The position numbers and the translations under genes are program-made. From the NCBI GenBank assembly GCA_964549615.1, contig CAZJVP010000078.1:1-48333 (forward strand): DNA of 48,333 bases, given 5' to 3'. Source of the DNA: an uncultured Thermococci archaeon (GTDB lineage: Archaea; CAYQAE01; CAYVLA01). The notes beneath the pieces are model-generated. The model was not told where the DNA came from. It worked only from the letters and a program-made list of their open reading frames with translations, and did not search any database. Shown here piece by piece: positions 1 to 10,447 of this stretch (positions within the stretch are counted from its first letter, which is position 1; each line of letters begins with the position of its first letter).

Positions 1-675
<675 letters not shown>

Positions 676-882
676 CATGGTCGCAATAGCCCATTGCCAG
701 GGGGCCGAAATCCGCATCAAACCCAAAGAGCGCCTCTGCGCTCGGAACTTGGGTCCTCATCCCTGCACCATGGCGCGGATCCGGTCCATCAATGTAAGGC
801 AGACGCCACCCTCCGGACCGACGCCGATAAGAGCGCCATGAGTCCGTTCCCTAGGACGAACATCGTAGGTGGGCCTATTCAC

Positions 883-893
883 CTTAAAAATAT
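883..893 (-). promoter_or_regulatory. Probable TATA box of the rRNA promoter
   Basis: AT-rich ATATTTTTAAG on the minus strand ~210 nt upstream of the mature 16S 5' end, in an otherwise GC-rich spacer. Confidence 0.55.
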
Positions 894-948
894 TACCCAA
901 CCCTCCCCCTGGTGACTGCGGGACGCCCCTGGTAACCCGAGAATCGAA

Positions 949-1074
949 CGCTTTCCGGGGAACAAGGCACTCCTTGCCCCCTCCCGGCCGAGATTTGAAC
1001 CCGGGTCCTGGGAGTGACAGTCCCAGATGATTGGCCTCCCTCGATCGGCGAATAGGCCACTACACTACCGGGGC
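949..1074 (-). tRNA. tRNA-Asp(GUC) with two introns (1052-1031 at 21/22; 982-952 at 70/71)
   Basis: Anticodon arm TGGGA-CTGTCAC-TCCCA and T arm CCGGG-TTCAAAT-CTCGG. Removing both inserts gives a 73-nt cloverleaf with acceptor stem GCCCCGG/CCGGGGC and discriminator G73. Confidence 0.9.
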
Positions 1075-1194
1075 GCGCAACCCCTACGCCCGCAAGCGGC
1101 TGAAAAATTTTTCCAGCTGGCTTGCCCGAAGAAGCCGCAGGGGACCGTTCGGCGTTGCTACAATTTAAGATCAAGCCCAACGAACCCCCTACGC

Positions 1195-10355: not shown

Positions 10356-10447
10356 GCGGCCGTGGTCTAGTCCGGTTAGGACATGAGCTTCCCATTCTCC
10401 GGAGGAGAGAGCTCATTGCCCGGGTTCAAATCCCGGCGGCCGCACCA
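10356..10447 (+). tRNA. tRNA-Gly(CCC) with canonical 15-nt intron (10395-10409) and encoded CCA
   Basis: Acceptor GCGGCCG/CGGCCGC, anticodon stem TGAGC/GCTCA, BHB central helix TTCC/GGAG. Confidence 0.95.

What the first reader, a model, noticed from the sequence alone, without database searches (positions are those of the whole stretch)
949..990. Apparent tRNA intron inside the 3' acceptor strand (position 70/71) of tRNA-Asp
Seen: read contiguously, the acceptor 3' strand is CCGGGAG, which mispairs at 1:72 and 2:71. It is followed by a 10-bp hairpin, GGGGGCAAGG-AGTG-CCTTGTTCCC. Excising 31 nt (982-952) restores CCGGG|GC-G, a perfect 7-bp stem plus the Asp discriminator G73. The junctions fit BHB geometry: central helix GCCG/CGGA (one G-A mismatch), 3-nt bulges GG|A and AA|G, and a 2-bp outer helix. 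Known: non-canonical archaeal introns are mostly in the D, anticodon, variable and T arms; acceptor-stem introns are rare, and I do not know of one at 70/71. Inference: the last exon is only 3 nt, so splicing would probably have to precede 3' trimming and CCA addition, and standard tRNA finders would likely call this gene truncated or pseudo.
Basis: partly seen in the sequence, partly recalled or inferred. Interest (0 to 1): 0.85.

Follow-up and report, generated by a model that had tools for sequence, protein, structure and literature searches.

The report
Intron in tRNA-Asp acceptor stem
The only aspartate tRNA gene of this uncultured hot-spring archaeon is interrupted, three bases before its end, by a 31-base hairpin that almost certainly has to be cut out by the cell's tRNA-splicing enzymes: a known kind of intron in a rare place.

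Summary
On the minus strand, a tRNA-Asp(GUC) gene runs from 1074 to 949. Read contiguously, its acceptor stem has 5 of 7 pairs, whereas 34 of 34 other tRNAs in this genome have 7 of 7. Removing 31 nt (982-952) joins G70 to G71-C72-G73 and gives 7 of 7 Watson-Crick pairs plus G73.

The insert, its length and the 'AAGCG' after it are kept in 4 of 4 genomes of the family and in two independent metagenome assemblies. Its 10-bp hairpin changes only in pair-preserving ways. The junctions fit a bulge-helix-bulge motif in the only register that restores the tRNA. That fold lies 0.7-1.9 kcal/mol above the minimum free energy.

Two EndA genes (one matching the ε2 type), RtcB, RNase Z and a CCA-adding enzyme are present. 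The same gene also has a 22-nt D-loop intron.

New here: a conserved 3' trailer element (941-934) is complementary to the T-stem 5' strand. It could scaffold the motif and hold the 3-nt last exon.

No RNA data exist, so splicing is inferred. Acceptor-stem introns are known as a class. I could not establish whether 70/71 is already catalogued. Verdict: real, new member of a known kind, moderate interest.

The parts
1103..1112 (-). A/T-rich box (AAAAATTTTT) about 29 nt upstream of G1. Candidate archaeal TATA box for the tRNA-Asp gene.
   Evidence: Read. Similar boxes (AAAATATTTATTA) sit at the same place in the three relatives. Promoter function is inferred, not tested. The bacterial-type scan does not apply.
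1053..1074 (-). Exon 1: acceptor 5' strand GCCCCGG, U8 A9, D-stem 5' strand and first part of the D-loop.
   Evidence: RF00005 alignment starts at 1074. Invariant in 4 genomes except two positions. No change listed in the X2 contig.
1031..1052 (-). First intron, 22 nt, in the D-loop. The BHB reading is GGCC UA|U ... GGCC AA|U. The boundary can slide within the repeated GGCC.
   Evidence: Rfam leaves a 26-nt insertion here. An insert of 20-30 nt at this place occurs in 4 of 4 family genomes, with a stem that changes length and sequence. The X2 relative has 2 substitutions and 2 deletions here that tidy the stem. The boundaries were read by eye and not counted with a tool.
983..1030 (-). Exon 2: D-stem 3' strand, anticodon arm (GUC at 1018-1016), 4-nt variable loop, T-arm, and acceptor 3' strand C66-G70.
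   Evidence: Invariant but for three positions in 4 genomes. No change listed in X2 or X3.
952..982 (-). Second intron, 31 nt, between G70 and G71. It comprises A982, a 10-bp hairpin (981-972 with 967-958, loop 971-968), then CGGA (957-954) and AA (953-952).
   Evidence: Exactly 31 nt in 4 of 4 family genomes. Hairpin pairs hold in 39 of 40 cells, with AU/GC/GU at one pair. The X2 variant g977>a turns G·U into A-U. No paralogue elsewhere in the genome.
985..988 (-). BHB central helix, 5' strand (G65 C66 C67 G68). It pairs with 957-954.
   Evidence: Three invariant G-C pairs plus G65 opposite A (2 genomes), U (1) or C (1). This register is forced by the cut sites.
954..957 (-). BHB central helix, 3' strand (intron CGGA).
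   Evidence: The competing register CCGGG(66-70)/CCCGG is preferred by RNAfold and RNAalifold by 0.7-1.9 kcal/mol.
949..951 (-). Exon 3, 3 nt: G71 C72 G73 (last two acceptor pairs plus discriminator).
   Evidence: 'AAGCG' is invariant in 4 of 4 genomes while the next bases diverge. Joining gives 7 of 7 Watson-Crick pairs and G73. The result has the same acceptor as the contiguous Pyrobaculum tRNA-Asp genes GCCCCGG...CCGGGGCGCCA.
934..941 (-). Conserved 3' trailer element CTCGGGTT, starting 7 nt after G73. It is complementary to the T-stem 5' strand and variable region (GACCCGGG, 1007-1000).
   Evidence: Same offset in 4 genomes. Contiguous pairing is 8, 9, 16 and 10 bp, against a null of 8 or more in 1541 of 20000 and 12 or more in 10 of 20000. 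It is in the RNAalifold consensus. 37 of 40 cells pair. No change is listed at 933-948 in X2 or X3, while many changes occur from 932 downstream. Its function is inferred.
884..895 (-). Second A/T box (TAATATTTTTAA) between the tRNA and the 16S rRNA. Candidate rRNA promoter.
   Evidence: Read. Conserved in 4 genomes. Inferred only.
1..675 (-). 5' part of the archaeal 16S rRNA gene, cut by the window end. Context only.
   Evidence: Rfam RF01959, 636.5 bits.

Best explanation
This is the single, functional tRNA-Asp(GUC) gene of the organism. It is transcribed as a 126-nt body plus leader and trailer and carries two protein-spliced (BHB-type) introns: 22 nt in the D-loop and 31 nt between positions 70 and 71 of the 3' acceptor strand.

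Inferred mechanism:

1. In the precursor, the 3' domain refolds from the cloverleaf into a long hairpin.
2. The 3' trailer (941-934) pairs with the T-stem 5' strand (1007-1000). This frees C63-G68.
3. C63 G64 pair with C72 G73. G65-G68 pair with the intron's CGGA. The intron's own 10-bp hairpin forms the third helix.
4. This presents two 3-nt bulges, GG|A and AA|G, across a 4-bp helix.
5. A broad-specificity splicing endonuclease cuts after G70 and before G71.
6. The trailer helix keeps the tiny 3' piece (GCG plus trailer) in place, and RtcB joins G70 to G71.
7. The RNA then snaps into the cloverleaf with a perfect 7-bp acceptor stem.
8. RNase Z trims after G73 and CCA is added, since CCA is not encoded.

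Splicing therefore has to come before 3' end maturation.

Shown: the sequence anatomy, its conservation, and the presence of the enzymes. Inferred: cleavage, ligation, the order of steps, and the role of the trailer.
For: Anatomy:
- The contiguous reading gives 5 of 7 acceptor pairs, against 7 of 7 in 34 of 34 other tRNAs.
- The spliced form is 73 nt, with 7 of 7 Watson-Crick pairs and G73.

Single copy:
- ARAGORN finds 1 Asp among 47 calls.
- There is one pattern match per family genome.
- There is no second copy of any exon or of the anticodon arm, in a MAG rated 99.46% complete.

Conservation:
- Both inserts sit at the same places in 4 of 4 family genomes, which span 3 genera.
- The 3' intron is exactly 31 nt in all four.
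- AAGCG is invariant while the trailer diverges.
- Among 19 GTDB stretches sharing the T-arm and acceptor sequence, only the 3 relatives carry the insert. The other 16 are contiguous.
- Independent assemblies agree. The X2 contig covers 700-1119 with 30 differences, none listed in the exons and two in this intron (a loop base and G·U>A-U). The X3 contig covers 774-984 with no listed change in 932-984. No joint, that is no intron-less DNA form, was seen.

Structure:
- The BHB model pairs in 61 of 64 cells, against 52% or less when slid.
- With the trailer helix it pairs in 98 of 104 cells.
- The BHB-enforced fold is 0.7-1.9 kcal/mol above the MFE in all four genomes.
- The chance rate of such a rescue is 0.9%, or 0.0045% with a hairpin of 8 bp or more.

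Enzymes in the genome:
- Two EndA genes are present. One matches ARMAN-2 ε2 EndA (4fz2) end to end at E = 2e-73. The other is a two-unit form whose catalytic half best matches solved tRNA-splicing endonuclease chains 3p1z_B and 3ajv_B. I recall those two entries as the Aeropyrum pernix crenarchaeal α subunit. All 4 family genomes have both genes.
- RtcB, the archaeal CCA-adding enzyme and RNase Z are also present.
- According to passages read in PMC5829648's abstract listing and PMC12397907, ε2 and (αβ)2 EndAs are the types that cleave non-canonical and relaxed motifs.
Against: - There is no RNA evidence of any kind.
- The outer helix next to the 3' cut has only 2 bp. The central helix has a G·A mismatch in this genome and in G003.
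- RNAfold and RNAalifold prefer a neighbouring register, CCGGG(66-70) with CCCGG, in which the cut sites are not in canonical bulges.
- The H1 and H2 pairs never vary, apart from the G65 pair, so they carry no covariation support.
- With four related sequences the shuffle control is uninformative, at 261 of 500.
- The structure was derived from these same sequences, which inflates the slid-register contrast.
- The BHB fold needs the T-stem and most of the acceptor stem to be open.
- The trailer-helix partner on the tRNA side is invariant, so only one-sided C/U changes support it.
- The tRNA-Asp of the only other family of the phylum (G004) was not found, so the ancestral state rests on more distant genomes.
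Confidence: 0.85

Rival explanations
1. The locus is a decaying pseudogene. The working tRNA-Asp is encoded elsewhere, in an unassembled part of the genome or as a split or permuted gene.
For: The assembly is a 104-contig MAG. Only 35 tRNA hits were found, and ARAGORN lists no Asn, His or Phe, so tRNA genes are clearly being missed.
Against: The exons are invariant, or nearly so, across 3 genera and two further assemblies, while the flanks diverge. The intron length is fixed at 31 nt and its hairpin changes are pair-preserving. No other exon-like or anticodon-arm copy exists in the genome. The same single locus is found in each of 4 genomes. A pseudogene would not keep AAGCG and a fixed-offset trailer element.
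Confidence: 0.04
2. The insert is removed, but not by EndA at a BHB. For example, the RNA is cut near G70 by RNase Z or another nuclease and the last bases are restored by a repair or templated addition activity, or it is cleaved in the cloverleaf-plus-hairpin fold.
For: The minimum-energy folds do not show the canonical BHB register. Without the trailer, the MFE is a cloverleaf with the hairpin protruding between pairs 3:70 and 2:71.
Against: Conservation of the downstream GCG and of the trailer would be unexplained if the 3' exon were not used. The BHB fold is within 2 kcal/mol of the MFE. The genome has two EndA genes and RtcB. From my own knowledge, no 3'-end repair of this kind is known in archaea.
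Confidence: 0.06
3. The tRNA is used unspliced at this site. Either it ends at ...CCGGGAG-G with two mispaired terminal pairs, or it keeps the hairpin as an acceptor-stem expansion.
For: Rfam still scores the contiguous reading above its threshold, at 32.5 against 29 bits.
Against: Position 982 is A in this genome and T in the three relatives, so neither base would pair with C2. 34 of 34 other tRNAs have perfect stems. The G73 that restores the usual Asp discriminator lies beyond the insert. The role of G73 in Asp identity is from my own knowledge. A three-way junction between pairs 2:71 and 3:70 would be expected to clash with RNase P, AspRS and EF-1α, which is an inference.
Confidence: 0.03
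4. The insert is an assembly or binning artefact.
For: Contigs of other runs break inside the conserved T-arm region around 984-1036, which shows that this region is hard to assemble.
Against: The same structure occurs in three other species-level genomes. It also occurs in an independent contig from another study that bridges 700-1119 (X2). The source run holds the whole stretch in one 10-kb contig with no differences.
Confidence: 0.01

Closest known systems
Non-canonical BHB introns of archaeal tRNA genes (Thermoproteales such as Pyrobaculum and Thermofilum; also Thaumarchaeota and Asgard)
   Same: A short insert (tens of nt) at a non-37/38 position. Several introns occur in one gene. The junctions fold into a bulge-helix-bulge or a relaxed version of it. 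The host encodes broad-specificity EndA and RtcB. Basis: passages read in PMC4090602, PMC8450103, PMC3218864 and PMC12397907, and the abstract and passages of the preprint 10.64898/2026.10.13.758758.
   Different: The position is in the 3' strand of the acceptor stem and leaves a 3-nt last exon. The positions named in the text I could read are 3/4, 20/21, 22/23, 25/26, 29/30, 30/31, 45/46, 53/54, 56/57 and 59/60 (PMC4090602). Among the 38 lowest-scoring tRNA hits, out of 142 in all, of four Thermoproteales genomes, I saw none with a split 3' strand, and one was unclear. The host is a different lineage, a 5-species GTDB phylum.
Intron at 3/4 in the 5' acceptor strand of some Thermoproteales tRNAs (Sugahara et al. 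2008, as cited in PMC4090602)
   Same: An intron inside the acceptor stem that leaves a 3-nt terminal exon. It is described there as an extreme case (passage read).
   Different: That intron is on the 5' strand, so the short exon is at the RNase P end. Here the short exon is at the RNase Z/CCA end and is followed by a conserved trailer. I could not read the original paper.
Split (trans-spliced) tRNAs of Nanoarchaeum equitans, Caldivirga and others
   Same: Complementary flanking sequence outside the mature tRNA holds the pieces together and builds the BHB (passages in PMC3218864, and PMC4090602). The trailer/T-arm helix proposed here would play the same tethering part in cis.
   Different: All exons here are colinear on one transcript. 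No separate half-gene exists.
BHB processing stems flanking archaeal 16S/23S rRNA
   Same: A long imperfect hairpin made from distant flanks, with a BHB in the middle that is cut by the same EndA (abstract of PMC7714728 seen in the listing).
   Different: In rRNA the excised part is the product. Here the excised part is discarded and the flanks are ligated into a tRNA.

Membership tests
Archaeal protein-spliced (EndA/BHB) tRNA intron | The insert interrupts a tRNA gene, and joining the exons gives a canonical cloverleaf. | tested here: met
   The spliced product is 73 nt with 7 of 7 Watson-Crick acceptor pairs and G73. The contiguous reading gives 5 of 7. Rfam marks 1:72 and 2:71 as non-standard.
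Archaeal protein-spliced (EndA/BHB) tRNA intron | [quoted passage not shown] | tested here: met
   The bulges are GG|A and AA|G. H has 3 G-C pairs plus G65 opposite A/U/C. h is 2 bp and h' is 10 bp. 61 of 64 cells pair. The fold is 0.7-1.9 kcal/mol above the MFE. In this genome the motif is met in relaxed form, because of one G·A in H. G001 and G002 have a full 4-bp H.
Archaeal protein-spliced (EndA/BHB) tRNA intron | The host encodes a splicing endonuclease able to cut non-canonical or relaxed motifs. | tested here: met
   Two EndA genes are present. The 403-aa one matches ARMAN-2 ε2 EndA 4fz2 over residues 29-403 at E = 2e-73. The 393-aa one is a two-unit form with tRNA_int_endo twice. Their activity was not tested.
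Archaeal protein-spliced (EndA/BHB) tRNA intron | The host encodes the 3'-phosphate RNA ligase RtcB. | tested here: met
   PF01139 scores 607 bits over positions 1-426 of 426.
Archaeal protein-spliced (EndA/BHB) tRNA intron | The intron is absent from the mature RNA (spliced junction, released intron). | not testable with these tools
   No RNA run holds the stretch. Only DNA contigs could be laid.
Archaeal protein-spliced (EndA/BHB) tRNA intron | The structure, not the sequence, of the intron is conserved among relatives. | tested here: inconclusive
   Five of the 10 hairpin pairs vary. Four of them keep pairing in all four genomes, and the fifth, the loop-closing pair, is broken in one cell. 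One pair changes on both sides, and one more G·U>A-U change is seen in X2. With only 4 related sequences the shuffle control gives 261 of 500.
Split or permuted tRNA gene | The tRNA pieces are encoded at separate loci or in permuted order. | tested here: not met
   The exons are colinear within 126 nt. No other copy of any piece exists in the genome.

The most novel reading that the evidence does not exclude
This may be the first documented tRNA intron at 70/71. Its splicing motif would be built with help from outside the tRNA. A conserved 3'-trailer 'anti-T-arm' helix opens the T-arm and acceptor, frames the bulge-helix-bulge, and tethers a 3-nt terminal exon for ligation. That would be a cis version of split-tRNA logic. 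It would hard-wire the order splicing, then RNase Z, then CCA addition. It occurs in a small uncultured hot-spring phylum that keeps two different EndA architectures side by side.
Probability: 0.3. Interest if true: 0.6.

Novelty: new member of a known kind. Interest (0 to 1): 0.45.

Why it matters
An organism's only tRNA-Asp depends on removing an intron that leaves just three nucleotides of final exon. This tests the limits of what archaeal splicing endonucleases and RtcB can handle. It also fixes the order of tRNA maturation steps, because the 3' end cannot be trimmed first.

In practice, standard finders mis-call the gene. ARAGORN gives the wrong boundaries and Rfam scores it barely above threshold. 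Genomes of this lineage will therefore look as if they lack a proper tRNA-Asp.

The conserved trailer helix, if real, would show how introns can survive at positions where the tRNA body alone cannot build the splicing motif. That bears on how split tRNAs and introns convert into each other. The coexistence of an ε2-type and a two-unit EndA in all four genomes offers a natural system in which to ask which enzyme serves which substrate.

Tried and rejected
RNA evidence. The look-up of sequencing runs listed no RNA holder, so expression and splicing could not be examined. Only DNA contigs were laid.

Outgroup. The tRNA-Asp of G004, the only other family of the phylum, was not found. Two patterns failed. 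The two best BLAST spots turned out to be a tRNA-Glu and another, unidentified tRNA. It was also absent among the 30 of 32 RF00005 loci scanned with ARAGORN. One search was a script error of mine and was corrected.

ARAGORN as a judge of splicing. On in-silico spliced forms it gave the same call with and without the 3' intron, and none for one form. It is therefore uninformative, and I used direct pair counts instead.

Intron mobility. The 31-nt and 22-nt introns have no paralogues in the genome, so there is no sign of intron transposition.

Hidden tRNAs. A strict T-arm scan found 32 extra candidates, almost all in coding sequence. One real multi-intron tRNA (C88) was among them, and none had a split 3' strand.

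Other RNA families. Nothing else credible overlaps 676-1300. The bacterial-type promoter and terminator scan found nothing relevant.

Literature on 70/71. The paper search cannot take '70/71'. Six searches and passages from eight papers surfaced no intron at 70/71. The key catalogues are not held: Marck & Grosjean 2003, Sugahara 2007, Sugahara 2008, and Randau & Söll 2008. [quoted passage not shown] They may list such introns. From memory only, the abstract of Marck & Grosjean 2003 mentions introns 'in the amino acid arm'. I therefore do not claim a first.

A survey of Thermoproteales covered only the 38 lowest-scoring of 142 RF00005 hits in four genomes. tRNAs that the model misses altogether were not examined.
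Full report
**What is there.**
The window is contig C78 of a 3.2-Mb, 104-contig archaeal genome with 60% G+C, rated 99.46% complete. On the minus strand, the 5' end of a 16S rRNA gene lies at 675. About 275 nt upstream of it lies a tRNA-Asp(GUC) gene whose first base is 1074.

Read straight through, the gene does not work:
- Rfam's tRNA model aligns 1074-980 at 32.5 bits, the lowest of the genome's 35 hits. It leaves a 26-nt insertion in the D-loop and marks pairs 1:72 and 2:71 as non-standard.
- ARAGORN calls a wrong 73-nt segment, 1052-980.
- The contiguous 3' strand CCGGGAG pairs with GCCCCGG at 5 of 7 positions. All 34 other tRNA hits of this genome pair at 7 of 7.

After G70 (983) come these elements:
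- A982;
- a 10-bp hairpin, 981-972 with 967-958, loop 971-968;
- CGGAAA (957-952);
- G951 C950 G949.

Removing 982-952, together with the D-loop insert, gives a 73-nt tRNA with seven Watson-Crick acceptor pairs and discriminator G. This is the same acceptor (GCCCCGG / CCGGGGC-G) that contiguous Pyrobaculum tRNA-Asp genes carry.

**Is it more than chance?**
Finding a GCG somewhere downstream is trivial. I therefore also asked for the geometry. The requirements were:
- an intron of 12-60 nt followed by GCG;
- at least 3 of 4 pairs between G65-G68 and the four intron bases that precede the last two;
- a hairpin of at least 3 bp starting right after the 5' bulge.

Random 80-mers of this genome meet these in 1746 of 200000 cases. 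Shuffles of the real flank meet them in 4150 of 200000. With a hairpin of 8 bp or more the count is 9 of 200000. The real flank has 3 of 4 pairs and a 10-bp hairpin, at exactly one intron length, 31 nt.

**Relatives.**
The GTDB phylum holding this genome has only five species genomes in the held set: four in the window's family (three genera) and one in a second family. NCBI titles call the three relatives 'Candidatus Hadarchaeota archaeon'.

All four family genomes have one tRNA-Asp locus with both inserts at the same places. They share the same neighbourhood: an A/T box, the tRNA, a second A/T box, then the 16S rRNA.

The 3' insert behaves as follows:
- It is exactly 31 nt in all four genomes.
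- The five bases AAGCG at its end are invariant, while the following bases differ.
- The first intron base is A here and T in the others, which fits an unpaired bulge base.
- In the hairpin, five of ten pairs vary. Four of them keep pairing in all four genomes, and the fifth, the loop-closing pair, is broken in one. One pair is A-U in two genomes, G-C in one and G·U in one.

A scan of 185,579 species genomes for the same T-arm and acceptor sequence followed within 22-45 nt by AAGCG returned 19 stretches. Only the three relatives have the insert. The other 16 are ordinary tRNAs with a contiguous 3' strand.

One of those 16, a 'Hadesarchaea archaeon' MAG, has a tRNA-Asp with a D-loop insert at the same place, a further insert next to the anticodon, and a contiguous CCGGGGCGCCA end. 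This suggests that the D-loop intron is older and the 70/71 intron is a later gain. That ordering is an inference. The tRNA-Asp of the sister family (G004) could not be found.

**Independent assemblies.**
No RNA run holds the stretch. Laying contigs of four DNA runs gave these results:
- The probable source run holds the stretch in one identical piece.
- A run from another study (X2) has a 589-nt contig bridging 700-1119 with 30 differences and 7 gaps.
- No differences are listed in the three exons. Two fall in the 3' intron: a loop base, and g977>a, which turns a G·U pair into A-U. Four fall in the D-loop intron. The rest lie in the leader and the downstream spacer.
- A third study (X3) has a contig over 774-984 with 12 listed changes, all between 850 and 931.
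- No contig joins across either insert.

The insert is therefore not an assembly artefact. The exons, the intron and the first 16 bases or so of the trailer are all under constraint.

**The splicing motif.**
Canonical archaeal splicing needs two 3-nt bulges on opposite strands, four base pairs apart, each cut after its second base. This geometry is stated in the preprint passage read. The cut position within the bulge is from my own knowledge.

With cuts fixed at G70|A and A|G71, there is only one possible register:
- H = G65 C66 C67 G68 (988-985) with C G G A (957-954);
- 5' bulge G69 G70 A (984-982);
- 3' bulge A A G71 (953-951);
- inner helix = the 10-bp hairpin;
- outer helix = C63 G64 (990-989) with C72 G73 (950-949).

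Across the four genomes, 61 of 64 cells pair, against 52% or less when the 3' partners are slid. The fourth pair of H is G·A in two genomes, G·U in one and G-C in one.

Weak points:
- The outer helix has only 2 bp.
- H1 and most of H2 never vary, so they carry no covariation signal.
- Four related sequences make the shuffle control meaningless, at 261 of 500.
- RNAfold and RNAalifold prefer the neighbouring register, in which G69 and G70 rather than the first two hairpin G's pair with the CC.

The energy difference is small. The BHB-enforced fold is 0.7, 0.8, 1.9 and 1.4 kcal/mol above the MFE in G000, G001, G003 and G002.

**A trailer element.**
In all four genomes, a trailer segment starting 7 nt after G73 pairs with the T-stem 5' strand and the variable region, GACCCGGG (1007-1000). 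The segment is CTCGGGTT (941-934) here, and CCCGGGAT, TCCGGGTT and TCCGGGTC in the relatives.

- RNAalifold puts this 10-bp helix in its consensus.
- 37 of 40 cells pair, and the whole model (trailer helix, H1, H2 and hairpin) pairs in 98 of 104 cells.
- The longest contiguous pairing is 8, 9, 16 and 10 bp in the four genomes. Random 30-mers of this genome reach 8 bp or more in 1541 of 20000 cases, 10 or more in 136, and 12 or more in 10.
- The trailer bases that vary are C or U opposite G.

The four loci are homologous, so they are not independent trials. However, the element keeps its offset while its surroundings diverge, and X2 and X3 show no change in 933-948 but many from 932 on.

My reading is an inference, at about even odds. 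The trailer sequesters the T-stem 5' strand so that C63-G68 are free to build the motif. After cleavage, it holds the GCG-trailer piece next to G70 for ligation. This would be the same trick that split tRNAs use in trans (passages in PMC3218864).

**Enzymes.**
The genome encodes two EndA homologues.
- One, of 403 aa, matches the ε2-type enzyme of ARMAN-2 (4fz2) over nearly its whole length at E = 2e-73.
- The other, of 393 aa, has the catalytic domain twice. Its C-terminal unit is closest to solved tRNA-splicing endonuclease chains 3p1z_B and 3ajv_B, at E about 1e-43 to 1e-42. I recall those entries as the Aeropyrum pernix crenarchaeal α subunit.
- All four family genomes have both. G004 has one small EndA.
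- RtcB, RNase Z and the archaeal CCA-adding enzyme are present.
- CCA is not encoded after G73 in any of the four loci.

According to the text I read, ε2 and (αβ)2 enzymes are the ones that accept non-canonical and relaxed motifs (abstract of PMC5829648 in the listing; PMC12397907).

**Most likely mechanism.**
The proposed sequence of events is:
1. A precursor is transcribed from the A/T box at 1112-1103.
2. Its 3' domain refolds into a trailer-closed hairpin that presents the BHB.
3. EndA cuts at G70|A982 and A952|G951.
4. RtcB ligates the exons.
5. The RNA refolds to the cloverleaf.
6. RNase P and RNase Z trim the ends.
7. CCA is added.

The D-loop intron (1052-1031 by the BHB rule) is removed in the same way, from a GGCC/GGCC helix with bulges UA|U and AA|U. 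That reading was made by eye.

Shown: the anatomy, the conservation and the enzyme genes. Inferred: every RNA-level step.

**Comparison with what is known.**
Non-canonical and multiple BHB introns are well known in Thermoproteales, Thaumarchaeota and, lately, Asgard archaea (passages; abstract).

Acceptor-stem introns are known as a class:
- An intron at 3/4 is cited as an extreme case (PMC4090602).
- A 2025 paper lists the acceptor stem among intron sites (PMC12397907).
- tRNAscan-SE 2.0 extends candidates by 60 nt specifically to catch introns near the 5' and 3' ends.

I found no mention of 70/71 in six full-text searches. However, the tool cannot search that string, the primary catalogues are not held, and supplements are closed.

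As a rough check of rarity, I looked at the 38 lowest-scoring or truncated hits, out of 142 RF00005 hits in all, in four Thermoproteales genomes (Thermocladium modestius and three MAGs). None showed a split 3' acceptor strand, one was unclear, and several had interruptions on the 5' side.

**Verdict.**
It is a further, positionally unusual member of a known class rather than a new kind of element.

Beyond the position, what is fresh is the conserved trailer helix and the pairing of two EndA architectures in this little-known lineage. Both are leads, not results. The interest is moderate. It would rise if RNA data confirmed splicing and if the trailer proved necessary.

Noticed in passing
window 1031-1052 (minus strand): The same tRNA-Asp gene has a second insert of about 22 nt in the D-loop. 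It is kept in 4 of 4 family genomes with a variable stem. It also sits at the same place in the tRNA-Asp of a 'Hadesarchaea archaeon' MAG (L050), which has a contiguous 3' end.
   Followed up: partly
G000 C88:58692-59873 (L031:1456-2637, minus) and C90:41463-42674 (L032:1195-2406, minus): There are two splicing-endonuclease genes in one genome. One is a 403-aa protein matching ARMAN-2 ε2 EndA end to end. The other is a 393-aa two-unit protein with an acidic N-terminal extension. Both are present in all four family genomes. The sister family has one small EndA.
   Followed up: partly
window 934-941 with 1000-1007 (minus strand): A conserved 3' trailer element at a fixed offset of 7 nt after G73 is complementary to the T-stem 5' strand. 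It pairs over 8 to 16 contiguous bp in the four genomes.
   Followed up: yes
whole genome G000: Only 35 Rfam tRNA hits were found, and ARAGORN lists no tRNA-Asn, -His or -Phe, in a MAG rated 99.46% complete. More tRNA genes are probably hidden by multiple or oddly placed introns. One multi-intron tRNA at C88:26921-27062 is missed by Rfam.
   Followed up: partly
window 1-1112 (minus strand); L002, L003, L004: The tRNA-Asp gene sits directly upstream of the 16S rRNA gene on the same strand. A/T boxes lie at 1112-1103 and 895-884. This arrangement is conserved in all four family genomes. Whether the tRNA is also read through into the rRNA transcript is open.
   Followed up: partly
window 10356-10444 (plus strand): A tRNA-Gly(CCC) gene with an 18-nt insertion in the anticodon loop scores 56.5 bits in Rfam. 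It looks like an ordinary canonical-position intron.
   Followed up: no
L085 (G044:C1), L095 (G043:C34), L062 (G042:C52), L088 (G041:C8): Some Thermoproteales tRNA genes have interruptions at or next to the 5' acceptor strand. One Thermocladium tRNA has a 5' end AAGCCCG that mispairs at 1:72 and 2:71 with CGGGCCC. These were not resolved.
   Followed up: no
G004 (second family of the phylum): This genome is AT-rich, unlike the 60% G+C of the window's family. Its tRNA-Asp could not be located with two patterns or among 30 of its 32 Rfam tRNA loci.
   Followed up: partly
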